Shown here: piece by piece, positions 1-6,000 of the stretch
How the letters are laid out: every line of letters starts with the position of its first letter
How positions within the stretch are numbered: position 1 is the first letter of the stretch
NCBI RefSeq assembly: GCF_017348835.2
Contig: NZ_CP071375.1
Source of the DNA: Escherichia coli
GTDB taxonomy: Bacteria; Pseudomonadota; Gammaproteobacteria; Enterobacterales; Enterobacteriaceae
Length of the DNA: 64,000 bases
Strand: one strand, 5' to 3'
Program-made: the position numbers

Positions 1-3000
1 TTTAATCAGCGTATTTTTCTTATCCGTCACTTCAATCACCACACCAGTCACCTGTGGGACAACAGGAATAGAAATAACCGCTTTTTGCGCTTTAAAGGTA
101 TACGGATGGTTATAGTTCATTAACAGAATTAGACCGCTGACAATAAATATTCCACCCAGGGCCGCTGTGGGAATGGTCCATTTATTTACGGGAATTTTGA
201 AGATCTTAAACATTGCCCATGCAAAAGCCACATAGGTCAAAATAATCAGTAAATCCATAAGTATTACTCGGCAGAAGAGGATTTGATGTCGGCGAGCTGT
301 TTCTCCAGCCCGGCAATGCGCTGTTGCAGTTGCATAACGGAGGAATCATGGCTTTGCATTCCCCATCCCCGCTCCGGGCGGTAAAGCGTGGCCCAAATCC
401 ACAAAAACGGCCAGATAACATGTAACGTAAAAAGACTCACCCAACCAGCAACATGAATGGCGTCGGCATGAGGATGATTACGTTTTTTAGCAATCAGGTA
501 GGGAATATCATGTAAAATAATAATCCCATAAAATATCACCAGAAATACAAAAATAAGCACTCCCAGTGCAAAATAGTCCAGGAACATATTTCCCTCAGAG
601 AATATAAAAAAGAACAATTAACGCATATTATGAAATGCCATGATGCAGTGCAATTCCCTTATTTATATAACGACATATTGTTTTTTATATACTTCCTGAA
701 GTGTGCTGACTGGCTTTTTAACAGGTCGAGGCTTATCATATTGAAATAATGGAACTATTGGCCAAATTTATGATTAAAAACCGTAAAACATCCACAATGC
801 AGATTAAGCGTATTAAACCTTCAATAATCTACCGTTTATTGCTGATTGTCCTCGGAATACCAATGGTGATTTACGGTCTGGTTTGCCCGCTCACCATCGA
901 AACGCGAGATTAAACTCCTGGCAAAACACGCCCCAGAAACGCACTTTTGTTGGCGTAGTCTGGGTTATTGCACACGTAGGTTTAAAACGTAAATTGTAAC
1001 AACGTGCGCTTTGTTTATGCCGGATGCGGCGTGTACGCCTTATCCGACCTACGGTCAGGTTCCCGTAGGCATGATAAGACGAGTAAGCGTCGCATCAGGC
1101 AATGAATACCCAATGCGACCAGCTTCTTATATCAGAACAGCCCCAACGGTTTATCTGAGTAGCTCACTAGCAGGCACTTGGTTTGCTGGTAATGCTCCAG
1201 CATCATCTTGTGGGTTTCGCGACCGATGCCTGATTGTTTGTAGCCGCCAAACGCCGCATGTGCCGGGTAAGCGTGATAACAGTTGGTCCACACGCGCCCA
1301 GCCTGTATGCCGCGCCCCATCTTATAGGCCAGATTACCGTTGCGGCTCCAGACGCCCGCGCCCAGGCCATATTGCGTATCGTTCGCCAGCTCCAGCGCTT
1401 CTTCCATCGTTTTGAAGGTGGTCACCGCCAGCACCGGGCCAAAAATCTCCTCCTGGAACACGCGCATATTGTTCTGACCAAACAGAATCGTCGGTTCGAG
1501 GTAGTAGCCGTCTTTCAGTTCACCTTCCAGCAGCTTGCGCCGCCCGCCAGTGAGCACGTCTGCGCCCTCTTTTTTACCGATATCAATGTAGTTGAGGATG
1601 GTTTCCAGTTGCCCGTGAGAAACCTGCGCCCCCATTTGCGTCACGCTGTCGAGTGGGTTACCGCTGCGAATGCTTTCGACACGGCGGATGGCGCGTTCCA
1701 TAAAGCGTTCGTAGATTGACTCCTGCACTAAGGCACGACTCGGACAGGTGCAAACTTCGCCCTGGTTAAAGGCAAACAGTGCAAAGCCTTCCAGCGCTTT
1801 ATCGAAAAAGGCATCTTCTTCATCCATCACATCAGCAAAGAAGATATTTGGCGACTTACCGCCCAGCTCCAGCGTCACCGGAATAATGTTTTGCGTTGCG
1901 TATTGCATAATTTGTTGGCCCACTTCCGTTGAGCCGGTAAACGCCACTTTGGCGATGCGTTTCGAGGTCGCCAGATATTCGCCAATTTCCCCACCAGCGC
2001 CATTGACCACGTTCACCACGCCCGGCGGCAGTAAATCACCGACGATTTCCATTAGCAGCAGTACAGAAAGCGGGGTAAGACGTGCGGGTTTCAGCACCAC
2101 ACAGTTGCCCGCCGCCAGCGCGGGAGCCATTTTCCAGCTCGCCATCAGCAGCGGGAAGTTCCACGGGATAATCTGCCCCACCACGCCTAACGGTTCATGG
2201 AAATGATAGGCCACGGTTTCGCTATCAACTTCACTGATCCCACCTTCCTGCGCCCGAATACACGAGGCGAAATAGCGGAAATGGTCAATCGCCAGCGGTA
2301 CATCCGCAGCACTGGTTTCGCGAATGGGTTTGCCGTTATCCCAGGTTTCAGCTGTCGCTAACAGCTCGAGGTTTTGTTCCATTCGATCGGCAATCTTAAA
2401 CAGAATCGCCGCGCGATCCTGCACCGAGGTGTGCGCCCATTTATCTTTCACTTTGTGCGCAGCATCCAGCGCCAGATCGATGTCTCGTTTGCCCGAAGAC
2501 GCCACTTCGCACAGCAGCTGCCCGGTCACCGGCGTCAGGTTCTGGTAATACTCACCATCGGCAGGGGCTACCCATTCGCCGCCAATAAAGTTGTCGTAGC
2601 GGGCTTTTAACTTGATGGGGAAACCATACTCACCGGGCTTAATCTGTGCTGAAGGGGGATTGTTGGTCATGATCGTCTCCTTGCGGTGTGAGGTATAACA
2701 AGGGTAGACGTGGCTGGCGAAATCTTCGCCAGTCAGTGACAGCTTTTCGACGGCAATCACGAATTTACGGGCAAGGGTTACAACGGATAATGCGCGACGT
2801 ACACTGCTTGCTGGTCATTAATTTTCTTCTCTTGCGCAAATCCTTCTTTAACAATCGTCCGTAAATCAGTTCGCGCTGTATTATCAGAGACGCCCAGACT
2901 CGCGCTGGTTTCAGAAACTGTGTACTCTTTCCCCGGATTGGCGAGCATCACATTCAGGAGCGTTACCTGGCGAGGATTCAGGCGTTTAAGCACACCAGAG

Positions 3001-6000
3001 CTAAACAGCACACTATCGAGTTTTGCGCTTCGTTGTGTAATTTCATCAATATGCTGCTGCAAGTTATGCAGAGCGCGTTTAATGACATCGGCCTGATATT
3101 CAAGGAAATAAGTCAGATCCATACCGTCTGATTCAGTGTACTGGTAGCTGGCAGCATATTTGACTGGCGCAGCATGAAGCAAACGGCTGATGGAAATATA
3201 TTTAAAGACATCGTAGCCCGATTTCAGCATATACCAGTAAAACAGCGCCCGACTGGTGCGCCCGTTGCCATCGCGAAATGGATGTTCATGGGCCAGCATA
3301 AAATGCAGAATGCAGGCACGGATTAACGGGTGAATATACCCTTCATGGCTGTTTAACCACTGGCAAACTTTTTCCAGTCGTTCCGGTAACAATGCCGCAG
3401 CGGGCGGTTGGTGCACAATATTGCCGTCATAATCGGCGATCACGACATCATCTGTTTCACGAAATTCACCTGGACGATATTTCGCGTCATTTATTCCCCC
3501 CATGCCAATGGCATGTAACTGGCGAATAAGCGCAGGTGTCAGCGGTTCTGCGAGTAAGTGCGGAATTTCCGCCATCAGCCGGGCATTTCCCGCAATCATA
3601 TGCTCGTCTTCAGTGCGTGGCGACCGTCCTGTTTCCAGCATTTTTCTCGCCACCAGCGTTGTAGTATTCGCACCTTCCAGCTGGGAGCTGGTGATCGGCT
3701 CTTCCAGGCGTAACTGGCTTAACTCGGCTCCGGCCCCGCGTAACCGTTCAGTCTGATCTTTCAGCGCCAGCGCGGTAGCACGTTTGTCGACAAGCTCGCA
3801 CGCTTCTGCAATCACCGGGGTAATGTTGAATCCGGCCTGTTCACCCGCTTCATTGCAATAATTAATTCGTTGGATCGCCGCGTTGCGCGCCAGACGGGTA
3901 AGCGTCCACGCCACATCGACGTTTTCTCCTTTTTTGATGCGGTACTGCAACTCATCAAAAGGCAGATAACGTCCTTTTTCATCGGTAACCCGGTTAAAGC
4001 GCAGGTGGGCCAGGAGTTCCTCACCCGATAAGTGTGATAAAGGAATAAGTCCGGGAGGTGATTTGATAGCCATGTGCTTATCTCAAAAAAGCGCAATATT
4101 GAGATAGTGTATAGCAGGAAAGAGAAACTATCTCAAAAAAAGCAAGTTTTGAGATAGTTGAAAAAGCGGCTGACAATTTGCCAGCCGTTGTTGGAATGAT
4201 GATTACATTGCGGCGCGATAAATCGCCACAATTTCTTCGTGAGTTGCCTGGATCGGGTTAGTAAAGCCACAGGCATCTTTCAGGGCATTAGCCGCCAGAA
4301 CCGCGAAATCTTCTTCTTTCACGTTCAGATCGCGTAGGCCTGCCGGGATATCCACTTTCTTCGCCAGTTCACGGATGGCGTTAATGCAGGCTTCAGCACC
4401 TTCCGCGTCGTTTTTACCAGTCACATTCACGCCCATTGCAGCGGCACAGTCACGCAGACGTGCAGCGGCGACTTTGCTGTTGAATACCTGAACATGCGGC
4501 AGCAGAACGGCGTTACATACACCGTGTGGCAGGTTATAGAAACCGCCCAGCTGGTGCGCCATCGCATGAACATAACCCAGAGAAGCATTATTGAACGCCA
4601 TACCGGCGAGGAACTGGGCATAAGCCATTGCTTCACGCGCTTTCGCATTACTGCCATCTTCAACGGCTAATGGCAGGTTTTCGGCAATCATGGTCACGGC
4701 TTTCAGTGCGCAAGCGTCAGTGATCGGCGTAGCGGCAATAGAAACATACGCTTCGATAGCGTGCGTTAAGGCATCCATACCCGTTGCGGCGGTCAGTGAC
4801 TTCGGCATACCAATCATCAGAGAGGAGTCATTGACAGAAAGCAGCGGAGTGACATGTTTATCAACAATCGCCATTTTGATATGACGCGCTTCGTCAGTGA
4901 TGATGCAGAAACGGGTCATTTCAGAGGCCGTACCCGCCGTGGTATTGATGGCGATCATCGGCAGCTGCGGTTTTGCAGAGCGGTCAACGCCTTCGTAATC
5001 GCGAATATCGCCGCCATTGGCTGCCACCAGCGCAATACCTTTTGCGCAGTCGTGCGGAGAACCACCGCCTAAGGAGATCACGCTATCGCAATTATTTTCT
5101 TTAAGTAATTTCAAACCTGCGGCGACGTTTTCCGTGGTGGGGTTAGGTTGGGTGCCATCATAAATAATGCTAAAAATATTGCGTTCTTCCAGTGCTTTTT
5201 GCACATCGCCCGCCATACCTAATTTCGTTAACATACTGTCAGTGACAATCAATGTACGGCGAAACCCATATTCTGCCATCATATTCATTGCATCAGCCAA
5301 TGAATCAGCGCCGATGACATTCACAGAAGGAATAAAAAAGGTTGAAGCTGCCATAACACACTCCTGAAAGTGTAAAAAAGGGCGGGCAGCTTACTGAGGA
5401 TTTTCATTCGAAAATATGATCAGTATTATTGTTTAGCAAAATTAATCTAATAAAAAGCACATTGCATTCATTAAACAATGTGCTTTTTTTAAATCATAAG
5501 AATTTTGTATTAATTTATTTTAAAACTTAATTAATCATTTCATTATTTTTCCGGAAATAATAATGCGTCGCGCAATAAATGATCATTTCCACGACGACGC
5601 GTAAAGCCAATGCGGTCAAAATATTCCAGGATTTGAATCGCCAGTTTTCGCCCAACCCCTAAGCGATCGCGGAAATCCGCCGCGCAGGTTGAACCACATT
5701 CCTGATCGAGATCGCGGATCATATTGGCAAATTCGACAATCCGATCGTTACGGTAATAACGATCTTTGACGATCGCGGTAATTATTCCCTGTTGGGCCGC
5801 CTGACGTAGCGTCAGGCGCATTGCCTGCTCGTCGGTGCCCGTCTCTTTTGCCAGATCACGCACCCACCACGGCTCGTCACCAAACAGCGGCTCTGCTTTC
5901 TGCCAGATGGCCTGCTGCTCTTCGCTGAAGCCCGCTTTGTGATCCGGCAGATGCAGCCAACCGTGATGACTGAGGATGTCGCCGCTTTCGCGCATCTTTT

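What the first reader, a model, noticed from the sequence alone, without database searches (positions are those of the whole stretch)
2778..4073. Class II Fic-domain gene inserted between aldB and yiaY
A 431-aa ORF carries a canonical Fic catalytic motif (HPFRDGNGRTSR) and an N-terminal SSQLEG that fits the [S/T]xxxE[G/N] auto-inhibitory helix, so it looks like a self-inhibited AMP-transferase. I do not recall a gene at this position in the K-12 backbone, so this is probably an accessory insertion. There are no flanking mobility genes. The target and any role (toxin, regulator, stress response) are unknown.
Basis: partly seen in the sequence, partly recalled or inferred. Interest (0 to 1): 0.6.

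Follow-up and report, generated by a model that had tools for sequence, protein, structure and literature searches.

The report
Self-repressing Fic enzyme gene, deleted in K-12
The ORF is a real, intact gene for a self-inhibited protein-AMPylating (Fic) enzyme fused to a DNA-binding domain that probably represses its own promoter; it is an old resident of this site that K-12-like E. coli deleted, not a new insertion, and it belongs to a known kind of protein.

Summary
Window 2778-4073 (minus strand) encodes a 431-aa protein with an intact Fic motif (H264-R275) and an S129-SQL-E133-G134 motif that aligns with the proven inhibitory helices of CccR and FICD. It lies between aldB and yiaY and is annotated "Fic family protein" in 1,572 of 5,426 complete E. 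coli genomes, including O157:H7 and ST131.

The "insertion" reading is wrong. E. albertii carries the gene next to aldB, with synonymous divergence like aldB's (0.33 vs 0.39). K-12 keeps a scar: the last five bases of the ORF joined to a half-site of the gene's upstream palindrome. An intermediate scar occurs in 550 genomes.

- a C-terminal winged-helix domain;
- two palindromic operator-like sites over a promoter-like element, conserved upstream of homologues in other genera and co-varying with the recognition helix across phyla;
- a family-specific N-terminal module with no known fold.

The closest characterised relatives are SoFic (anti-phage, AMPylates EF-Tu), CccR (autorepressor, AMPylates FtsZ) and CbFic2. 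This is a distant paralogue of them, not an orthologue. Target and physiological role remain untested. It is a new member of a known kind, of modest interest.

The parts
2778..4073 (-). Fic-family gene, 431 aa plus stop. Class II Fic enzyme with a C-terminal winged helix.
   Evidence: ORF. Pfam Fic E=1.4e-19. PADLOC SoFic model E=9.5e-44 over residues 96-427. Annotated 'Fic family protein' in 1,572 genomes. dN/dS 0.06-0.19 between alleles.
3819..4073 (-). Residues 1-85: family-specific N-terminal module (three helices and a beta-hairpin) with no recognisable fold relative.
3741..3818 (-). Residues 86-111: long helix. Its position corresponds to the alpha-1 dimerisation helix of SoFic, CbFic2 and CccR (inferred).
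   Evidence: AF2 secondary structure. SoFic and PADLOC alignments begin here. Dimerisation helices are described in bioRxiv 10.64898/2026.07.09.737422 and PMC10628234.
3672..3689 (-). Inhibitory motif S129-S-Q-L-E133-G134, at the end of helix 116-132.
   Evidence: Read from the sequence. Invariant in the family. Aligns with CccR S59ARIEG and FICD E234.
3249..3284 (-). Fic catalytic motif H264-P-F-R-D-G-N-G-R-T-S-R275.
   Evidence: Read from the sequence. H, F, D, G, N, G, R and R are invariant in the family.
2781..2993 (-). [quoted passage not shown] The putative recognition helix is residues 397-409 (nt 2847-2885).
   Evidence: AF2 topology H367-378, H386-393, H397-409, E413-417, E423-427. 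Weak Pfam HTH_DeoR and HTH_5 hits. Aligns with the wHTH domains of CbFic2, SoFic and EcSofic.
4079..4108 (.). Proximal operator-like palindrome O1 (ACTATCTCAA-N12-TTGAGATA in gene orientation), ending 5 nt before the ATG.
   Evidence: 0 matches expected by chance in the window. The half-sites are invariant upstream of homologues in 8 genera while the spacer varies.
4126..4159 (.). Distal operator-like palindrome O2 (AACTATCTCAAAA-N8-TTTTGAGATAGTT), 50 bp from O1. The half at 4151-4159 is all that remains in K-12.
   Evidence: The same two-site layout occurs in E. albertii, Pseudescherichia, Salmonella diarizonae and Leclercia. K-12 scar.
4108..4136 (-). Promoter-like element: -35 TTGAGA (4136..4131, inside O2), 17-nt spacer, -10 TATACA (4113..4108, abutting O1). 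Inferred, not mapped.
   Evidence: Read from the sequence. The equivalent TTGAGA/TTGCGA-N17-18-TATAAC/TATACT is seen in Pseudescherichia, Leclercia and Salmonella. The scanning tool did not call it because the last base of the -10 is not T.
4167..4187 (-). Intrinsic-terminator-like hairpin after yiaY. It separates yiaY transcription from the Fic promoter and is retained in empty alleles.
   Evidence: present in K-12.
2783..4150 (.). The 1,368-bp segment absent from K-12-like genomes (deletion, not insertion).
   Evidence: Junctions from comparison with AH62, CE0007a and MG1655.

Best explanation
The gene is a single-gene, self-regulated Fic module.

Shown by sequence:
- The protein has an intact Fic active site and an N-terminal inhibitory helix carrying Glu133, so it is class II.
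- It has a C-terminal winged-helix domain.
- Two palindromes overlie a promoter-like element directly upstream.

Inferred from homology and from co-variation:
- The protein dimerises through helix 86-111.
- Its two winged helices bind the half-sites ACTATCTCAA / TTGAGATAGT, about two helical turns apart, at O1 and O2, which represses its own transcription as CccR does.
- Meanwhile Glu133 keeps ATP in a non-productive pose, so the enzyme is off or acts as a deAMPylase.

Inferred more weakly:
- On some trigger the enzyme AMPylates an essential host protein and arrests growth, in the manner of SoFic (EF-Tu, anti-phage) or CccR (FtsZ).
- Candidate triggers are phage infection, loss of dimer or DNA contact, or a signal read by the unique N-terminal module.

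Evolution: the gene was already at the aldB-yiaY site in the common ancestor of E. coli and E. albertii. It is kept under purifying selection in about 29% of sequenced E. coli and was removed by deletion in the lineages that include K-12.
For: Domains and motifs:
- Searches give the domain and motif evidence.
- The inhibitory motif aligns with CccR and FICD.
- The AF2 model has pLDDT 89.7.
- Its best fold matches are CbFic2, SoFic and CccR (7xux), with TM normalised to the target of 0.56-0.72.
- hhalign against the experimentally protective EcSofic gives 98.4% probability over Fic plus CTD.
- The PADLOC SoFic model matches at E=9.5e-44.

Operators:
- The pattern occurs twice, against 0 expected.
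- Half-sites are invariant and spacers variable in 8 genera with unrelated flanks.
- 64 of 78 family loci have a palindrome with at least 9 matched arm bases within 160 nt upstream, against 8.5% of control windows.
- The half-site changes together with the recognition helix. Examples: SDNTAR with ATCTCAA, SENTARDDLKKL with CACCTCAA, SNF/YTAR with TTGCGAGAT, SSMTARKDL with TTCTTGCAA, TYQTARTDLL with TACTAAT.

Precedent:
- CccR represses its promoter through inverted repeats at -35/-10 (PMC9755527).
- SoFic dimers bind their own promoter and AMPylate EF-Tu (bioRxiv 10.64898/2026.07.09.737422).
- CbFic2 is switched by DNA-induced dimerisation (PMC10628234).

Ancestry:
- E. albertii is collinear at this locus.
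- dS is 0.33 for Fic and 0.39 for aldB, and dN/dS is 0.06-0.19.
- Deletion scars are present in the empty alleles.
Against: - No experiment exists on this protein.
- Identity to every characterised relative is only about 18-23%.
- It falls far below the NCBIfam SoFic equivalog cut-off, 40 vs 550 bits. Target and role therefore cannot be transferred.
- I could not inspect model coordinates, so the position of Glu133 over the active site is inferred from alignment only.
- The promoter is inferred and its -10 is imperfect.
- The control windows include coding DNA, which is less palindrome-rich than intergenic DNA, so the enrichment is overstated to an unknown degree.
- In E. coli the gene is not in a defence island and sits among metabolic genes.
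- The two SoFic candidates tested by Millman et al., one protective and one not, are both of the 358-aa type and not this family.
Confidence: 0.6

Rival explanations
1. Role rival A: it is specifically an abortive-infection anti-phage gene of the SoFic type. Phage infection releases the enzyme, which AMPylates EF-Tu or a similar target and stops the infected cell.
For: - The PADLOC SoFic model matches at E=9.5e-44 with about 89% model coverage.
- The architecture is the same as the protective EcSofic of E. coli H397.
- Homologues sit on an ICE-like element in Salmonella, in a P4-like satellite or prophage region in Klebsiella, and on some plasmids.
- The patchy presence and absence within the species is typical of defence genes.
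Against: - It is only 22% identical to the validated protein, and this family has never been tested.
- In E. coli, E. albertii, Pseudescherichia and P. syringae it lies among housekeeping genes, not in defence islands.
- It has been inherited vertically since before the E. coli/E. albertii split, which is unusual for a defence gene.
- There is no AS1-like small partner ORF.
Confidence: 0.3
2. Role rival B: it is a reversible housekeeping regulator. A bifunctional AMPylase/deAMPylase tunes a host protein (translation, division, topology) under stress and doubles as a transcription factor, with no role in immunity or competition.
For: - SoFic constitutively deAMPylates EF-Tu and CbFic2 is bifunctional; both depend on the inhibitory Glu (bioRxiv 10.64898/2026.07.09.737422; PMC10628234).
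- The gene shows long vertical residence and strong purifying selection at a metabolic locus.
- It lies just upstream of aldB with no terminator-like site between them.
Against: - It is dispensable: about 70% of E. coli genomes have deleted it.
- Relatives are toxic when derepressed (PMC12249575, PMC9755527).
- No operator copies occur elsewhere in the 64-kb window, so there is no sign of a local regulon.
Confidence: 0.25
3. One reading: the gene is a recently acquired accessory insertion into an originally empty aldB-yiaY spacer.
For: - It is absent from K-12 and from most E. coli genomes.
- Homologues elsewhere are on mobile elements.
Against: - Empty alleles contain remnants of the gene itself. 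TG+TAA from the ORF end is joined to TATCTC of the operator. A 36-bp-longer intermediate scar still carries a whole O2 palindrome in 550 genomes.
- The palindromes travel with the gene in other genera, so they are not native spacer sequence.
- E. albertii carries the gene next to aldB, with dS equal to that of aldB.
- There are no target-site duplications or mobility genes.
Confidence: 0.04
4. The palindromes act as RNA or terminator hairpins rather than protein-binding operators. O2 would be part of the yiaY terminator and O1 a 5'-UTR hairpin that masks the ribosome-binding site.
For: - The scan tool calls 4159-4126 terminator-like.
- O1's 3' arm overlaps the presumed Shine-Dalgarno.
- The same palindrome occurs as an apparent bidirectional terminator in unrelated phage contigs.
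Against: - The O1 hairpin is weak and not better than shuffles (-9.2 kcal/mol, z=-1.0).
- The arms are conserved in sequence, not by compensatory changes, across genera whose upstream genes differ.
- The half-site sequence tracks the recognition helix of the encoded protein.
- yiaY already has its own G+C-rich terminator at 4167-4187.
Confidence: 0.08

Closest known systems
SoFic (Shewanella oneidensis SO_4266 / MloA; PDB 3EQX, 3ZCN)
   Same: Both are class II Fic enzymes with an N-terminal inhibitory Glu, an alpha-1 helix, a Fic core and a C-terminal wHTH. Foldseek TM normalised to the target is 0.68-0.72. SoFic dimers bind their own promoter and AMPylate EF-Tu (bioRxiv 10.64898/2026.07.09.737422).
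   Different: Identity is about 18-19%. The NCBIfam equivalog scores 40 bits against a cut-off of 550. The window protein has about 85 extra N-terminal residues. Its operator sequences are defined here only by comparison, and no target is known.
EcSofic of E. coli H397 (358 aa; anti-phage 'SoFic' system of Millman et al. 2022; structure and AS1 antitoxin in PMC12249575)
   Same: The architecture is the same, with homology over Fic plus CTD (hhalign 98.4%). Both come from E. coli. Its cloned upstream region also contains repeated palindromes.
   Different: Identity is 22%. The window gene has no AS1-like 47-aa downstream gene. EcSofic lacks the N-terminal module. Anti-phage activity has been shown only for EcSofic.
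CccR of Yersinia pseudotuberculosis (PDB 7XUX; PMC9755527)
   Same: It is a class II Fic with S59ARIEG aligned to SSQLEG and a C-terminal HTH. The dimer represses its own promoter through inverted repeats at -35/-10. It is toxic through AMPylation of FtsZ.
   Different: CccR's arms are 26 bp apart and form a single site, whereas here there are two sites with 8-12-bp spacers. CccR is a T6SS-secreted effector that enters cells through FhuA; nothing suggests secretion here. Sequence homology was detected only over the Fic half.
CbFic2 of Coxiella burnetii (PDB 8CIL; PMC10628234)
   Same: It is the best profile and fold match among solved structures (83.9 bits, covering Fic plus wHTH). DNA binding through the wHTH drives dimerisation and switches AMPylation to deAMPylation.
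   Different: About 22% identity. CbFic2 binds DNA largely non-specifically and targets host histone H3. It has no N-terminal module.
FICD/HYPE (human) and the class II definition of Engel et al. 2012
   Same: The inhibitory Glu and the Fic motif align (E133 with E234). The Glu-to-His spacing is about 130 residues.
   Different: FICD is a eukaryotic ER protein with TPR domains and no DNA-binding domain.

Membership tests
Fic/Fido superfamily | Catalytic motif HxFx(D/E)GNGRxxR within a Fic fold. | tested here: met
   H264PFRDGNGRTSR275 read from the sequence. Pfam PF02661 E=1.4e-19. Invariant in 35 homologues.
Class II Fic (intramolecular N-terminal inhibition) | [S/T]xxxE[G/N] motif on a helix N-terminal to the Fic core in the same polypeptide. 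| tested here: met
   S129SQLEG134 lies at the end of predicted helix 116-132. It aligns with CccR S59ARIEG and FICD E234 and is invariant in the family.
Class II Fic (intramolecular N-terminal inhibition) | The inhibitory Glu reaches the second Arg of the Fic motif / the ATP gamma-phosphate site in 3D. | tested here: inconclusive
   The AF2 model is confident (pLDDT 89.7) and superposes on SoFic and FICD. The tools return no coordinates, so the E133-R275 distance was not measured.
SoFic-type Fic-wHTH proteins (architecture) | Alpha-1 helix, Fic domain and C-terminal winged helix in one chain. | tested here: met
   Foldseek matches to 3EQX, 3ZCN and 8CIL over about 350 columns. Profile alignment runs through the CTD. 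PADLOC SoFic HMM E=9.5e-44.
SoFic orthologue (NCBIfam NF046030 equivalog) | Score at or above the curated cut-off of 550 bits. | tested here: not met
   40.3 bits. It is a distant paralogous subfamily, not SoFic itself.
SoFic anti-phage defence system | Protects cells from phage when expressed from its native promoter. | not testable with these tools
   Only the 358-aa E. coli H397 protein is marked as validated. A second 358-aa-type candidate (KTE165) is marked 'x', which I take to mean not validated. No member of the 431-aa family has been tested.
CccR-like autorepressor | Palindromic binding sites overlapping the gene's own -35/-10 region. | tested here: met
   O1 and O2. Conserved in position and sequence in other genera. 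Family-wide enrichment and helix/half-site co-variation. Actual binding is untested.
CccR-like T6SS effector | Secretion by a T6SS and uptake by neighbouring cells. | not tested
   No T6SS genes lie adjacent in the part of the window examined. No signal can be assessed with these tools.
Fic toxin with a separate antitoxin (class I FicT/FicA, or EcSofic/AS1) | A small partner gene next to the Fic gene. | tested here: not met
   The 107-bp gap to aldB and the 129-bp gap to yiaY hold no plausible ORF. The only ORFs of at least 20 aa are overlapping ones with TTG or GTG starts. Homologues in four other taxa share no conserved neighbour.
Horizontally inserted accessory island | Mobility genes, target-site duplication, or an intact ancestral empty site. 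| tested here: not met
   No mobility genes or duplications were found. The empty sites are deletion scars, and E. albertii shares the locus.

The most novel reading that the evidence does not exclude
The operator DNA would be more than a repression site. It would be the allosteric off-switch of the enzyme across this whole family. Dimers clamped on O1/O2 would be held in the Glu133-inhibited, deAMPylating state. Anything that displaces or dilutes them would release monomers that AMPylate an essential target; candidates are phage nuclease attack on the chromosome, replication stress, or a ligand sensed by the fold-less N-terminal module. The matched changes of recognition helix and half-site seen from Enterobacteria to Bacteroidota, Nitrospirae and an archaeal MAG would then be a portable one-gene toxin-plus-own-antidote-DNA unit. 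That would be a toxin-antitoxin logic in which the antitoxin is a DNA site.
Probability: 0.15. Interest if true: 0.65.

Novelty: new member of a known kind. Interest (0 to 1): 0.3.

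Why it matters
- It corrects the evolutionary reading. The laboratory K-12 and BL21 backbone is the derived state, carrying a recognisable deletion scar. Major pathogen lineages (O157:H7, O55:H7, ST131, APEC/UPEC) retain an intact, selected Fic enzyme.
- K-12 is therefore a natural null background for testing the gene.
- The two operators and the family-wide pairing of recognition helix with half-site give concrete, cheap experiments on how Fic-wHTH enzymes couple DNA binding to AMPylation. That question is still open for SoFic, CccR and CbFic2.
- The gene is probably already counted as 'SoFic' by defence-system annotators, although it is only remotely related to the validated protein. 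This matters for interpreting defensome surveys.

Tried and rejected
1. I scanned IMG/VR for the operator pattern CTATCTCAA-N8-14-TTGAGATAG. It gave 29 contigs, none encoding a Fic homologue. Most are one phage family in which the palindrome, flanked by A/T runs, looks like a bidirectional terminator. These are chance or unrelated matches.
2. I folded the 5'-UTR to test an RNA-hairpin explanation. The result was -9.2 kcal/mol, z=-1.0, unremarkable.
3. I looked for an AS1-like or FicA-like small partner ORF and found none.
5. tblastn against phage genomes gave only weak partial Fic matches. tblastn against plasmids gave 18 near-full-length but distant homologues and none from E. coli.
6. A full-text search for aldB + yiaY + Fic found no paper.
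7. I checked whether Millman's second tested SoFic (KTE165) was this protein. It is not; it starts MKWNPEIPYNDLP, the 358-aa type.
8. PADLOC on the neighbouring variable ORFs 9710-13888 gave no defence hits. They are a split rhs gene.
9. I could not assign phylogroups to the 5,426 genomes with these tools, so the number of independent loss events is not established.

Full report
**Observation.** Window 2778..4073 holds a 431-aa ORF on the minus strand, running from ATG to TAA.
- HPFRDGNGRTSR is residues 264-275 (nt 3249-3284), read directly from the sequence.
- SSQLEG is residues 129-134 (nt 3672-3689), also read directly.
- Pfam Fic matches residues 177-281 at E=1.4e-19, with weak HTH hits at residues 376-413.
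- The flanks are aldB (1132-2670) and yiaY (4203-5354), as annotated in the 100%-identical locus of E. coli PE164.
- K-12 MG1655 has only a 164-bp spacer there.

**What the protein is.** The family is large. The first search gave more than 2,252 hits, all unnamed or called 'Fic family protein'.
- In 35 homologues down to 40% identity, SSQLEGA and HPFxDGNGR are invariant. Several N-terminal residues are invariant too: Y36, R45, W56, R63 and D96.
- SSQLEG aligns with FICD E234, and the E234G mutant chain shows G at that column. In the profile search it aligns with CccR's S59ARIEG. The CccR crystal structure shows that motif blocking ATP binding (PMC9755527).
- The AF2 model is confident (pLDDT 89.7, pTM 0.84). 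[quoted passage not shown]
- Foldseek's best matches are CbFic2 (8CIL), SoFic (3ZCN/3EQX), Dde_2494 (4RGL), CccR (7XUX), then FICD.
- The PADLOC SoFic model matches residues 96-427 at E=9.5e-44. The NCBIfam SoFic equivalog scores 40 bits against a 550-bit cut-off.
- The experimentally protective E. coli H397 SoFic, whose sequence is in the Millman et al. supplement, is 22% identical. It is nevertheless homologous over Fic plus CTD (hhalign 98.4%).

The class II Fic call is therefore right. The protein shares the architecture of SoFic, CccR and CbFic2 but is a distant paralogue. I could not measure the Glu133-to-Arg distance because model coordinates are not exposed.

**N-terminal module.** Residues 1-85 precede the helix that corresponds to the alpha-1 dimerisation helix of the solved relatives.
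- Modelled alone, residues 1-112 give pLDDT 91.7.
- A profile of this region finds 256 clusters among 1.84 billion representatives, always at the N-terminus. Full-length hits are 420-529 aa; the short hits look like truncated calls.

The module is family-specific and of unknown function.

**Operators.** Between the yiaY terminator (4167-4187) and the ATG lie two imperfect 30-nt palindromes, 50 bp apart: O2 at 4126-4159 and O1 at 4079-4108.
- The pattern ATCTCAA-N8-14-TTGAGAT occurs only there in 64 kb, and none of 100 shuffles produced a match.
- In gene orientation, O2's right arm contains TTGAGA. Seventeen nt downstream is TATACA, abutting O1, and O1 ends 5 nt before the ATG. This promoter reading is my inference; the scanning tool did not call it.
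- The same half-sites in the same positions (-82/-63 and -32/-13) precede the homologues of E. albertii, Pseudescherichia, Salmonella diarizonae and Leclercia.
- O1 alone precedes those of Photorhabdus, Pantoea and Buttiauxella, and the Erwinia MAG keeps its proximal arm. The flanking genes are unrelated and the spacers vary.
- Across 78 family loci from many phyla, 82% have a palindrome with at least 9 matched arm bases within 160 nt upstream, against 8.5% of control windows. The controls include coding DNA, which is a caveat.
- The half-site changes with the predicted recognition helix. SDNTAR(T/N)DLR pairs with ACTATCTCAA. SENTARDDLKKL pairs with CACCTCAA. (S/A)E(G/N)TAR pairs with AACTCAA or AGCTCAA. 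SN(F/Y)TAR pairs with TTGCGAGAT. SSMTARKDL pairs with TTCTTGCAA. TYQTARTDLL pairs with TACTAAT.
- An RNA-hairpin reading is weak (-9.2 kcal/mol, z=-1.0).

There is experimental precedent.
- CccR represses its own promoter through inverted repeats at -35/-10 and needs its dimer and HTH for this (PMC9755527).
- Dimeric SoFic binds the 100 bp upstream of its own start codon and AMPylates EF-Tu (bioRxiv 10.64898/2026.07.09.737422).
- CbFic2 is switched between AMPylation and deAMPylation by DNA-induced dimerisation (PMC10628234).

I therefore infer autorepression here. It is not shown.

**Insertion or deletion.** The gene is in 1,572-1,575 of 5,426 complete E. coli genomes (29%). It is always single-copy, chromosomal and at this locus, and never on a plasmid. 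Carriers include O157:H7, O55:H7, ST131 and APEC/UPEC strains.

The empty alleles are scars.
- K-12 reads ...CTTTTTCAACTATCTC|TGTAACCCTTGCCCG... (AH62 is the same). That is the distal half-site of O2 joined to TG+TAA, the last five bases of the ORF.
- A second empty allele, found in 550 genomes, is 36 bp longer. It keeps the whole O2 palindrome plus a half-site of O1, joined to the same TGTAA.
- The K-12 form equals this allele minus the 36 bp between two TATCTC repeats.
- Because the palindromes travel with the gene in other genera, they are not native spacer sequence. The empty sites therefore derive from occupied ones.

Divergence supports the same conclusion.
- E. albertii is collinear from the operators through the Fic gene into aldB, at 92% identity.
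- Synonymous divergence between the window and E. albertii is 0.33 for Fic and 0.39 for aldB. dN/dS for Fic is 0.06-0.19 in all comparisons.

The gene is ancestral, vertically inherited and under purifying selection, and it has been lost in K-12-like lineages. Only three carriers have a disrupted copy. The one I examined (DETEC-P836) is split by ISEcp1-blaCTX-M-55.

**Context elsewhere.** Homologues occur in varied settings.
- In Salmonella the homologue sits on an ICE-like element, next to AcaB, DUF3158, DUF3577 and DUF2859.
- In Klebsiella it sits in a P4-like or prophage region, with Bro-N, a DUF927 primase and AntA.
- In Pseudescherichia and P. syringae it lies among housekeeping genes.
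- A few plasmids carry it.

It is always a solitary gene with no conserved partner. No AS1-like or FicA-like ORF exists in the window.

**Function.**
- Supported by sequence and comparison: a self-inhibited Fic enzyme that carries its own DNA-binding domain and has operator-like sites at its promoter.
- Not settled: whether it acts in abortive-infection defence as EcSofic does, as a reversible regulator of a host protein, or otherwise. No member of this 431-aa family has been tested. The two SoFic candidates tested by Millman et al. are both of the 358-aa type.

**Verdict.** The finding is real but ordinary in kind. It is an annotated, uncharacterised subfamily of a known architecture. The deletion scar in K-12, the dual operators, the helix/half-site co-variation and the fold-less N-terminal module are useful, testable details. 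I rate it a new member of a known kind, interest about 0.3.

Noticed in passing
L097 (E. coli DETEC-P836, NZ_CP116103.1) 1-3878: In this genome the Fic gene is split by an ISEcp1-blaCTX-M-55 transposition unit, with a truncated WbuC-family gene. It is an example of chromosomal ESBL integration into this locus.
   Followed up: partly
window 9710-13888 (+): Two adjacent ORFs of 580 and 809 aa match positions 1-588 and 593-1261 of the RHS core model. This looks like one rhs gene (the rhsA position after yibF) broken by a stop or frameshift near 11452-11459. It could be a pseudogene or a sequencing error.
   Followed up: partly
window 22931-27778 (+): A 1,615-aa ORF with trimeric-autotransporter adhesin repeats and a YadA-like anchor (matches to Ata, EmaA, Vomp and YadA models, all below the family cut-offs). 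It resembles an EhaG/UpaG-type adhesin.
   Followed up: partly
window 55997-56035 (-): A JUMPstart RNA element (Rfam RF01707, 55.2 bits). It is the only Rfam hit in the window. From memory it is likely upstream of the waa (LPS core) operon.
   Followed up: no
P0098 (503 aa, Logan assembly): A predicted protein whose first ~168 residues are 100% identical to this Fic protein, while the rest carries an aldehyde-dehydrogenase Pfam domain. It may be another deletion allele that fuses the Fic N-terminus to aldB, or an assembly or gene-calling artefact.
   Followed up: no
window 2600-4300 versus E. coli genomes: The window's allele is rare. Only 2 of the 5,426 genomes match at 99% or more, one of them strain PE164 (pig, China) at 100%. 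All other carriers are about 95.6-97.4% identical, and the flanks are also 2-3% diverged from K-12 (dS for selB is 0.17). The source strain appears to belong to a divergent E. coli lineage.
   Followed up: partly
Supplement of bioRxiv 10.1101/2022.05.11.491447, SG63 insert: The cloned upstream region of the validated E. coli H397 SoFic contains several repeats of TGTCGAT...ATCGACA-type palindromes. This suggests that operator-like sites also precede the 358-aa SoFic type.
   Followed up: no
L099-L127 (IMG/VR contigs): A group of related phage contigs carries GCTATCTCAAA-N-TTTGAGATAGC flanked by A and T runs. It looks like a bidirectional terminator that happens to share the operator half-site. 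No Fic gene is nearby.
   Followed up: yes
L091-L093 (Pseudomonas syringae) 6001-8614: The P. syringae homologue also lies next to an iron-containing alcohol dehydrogenase gene, the same family as yiaY, in an otherwise unrelated context. This is probably coincidence.
   Followed up: no
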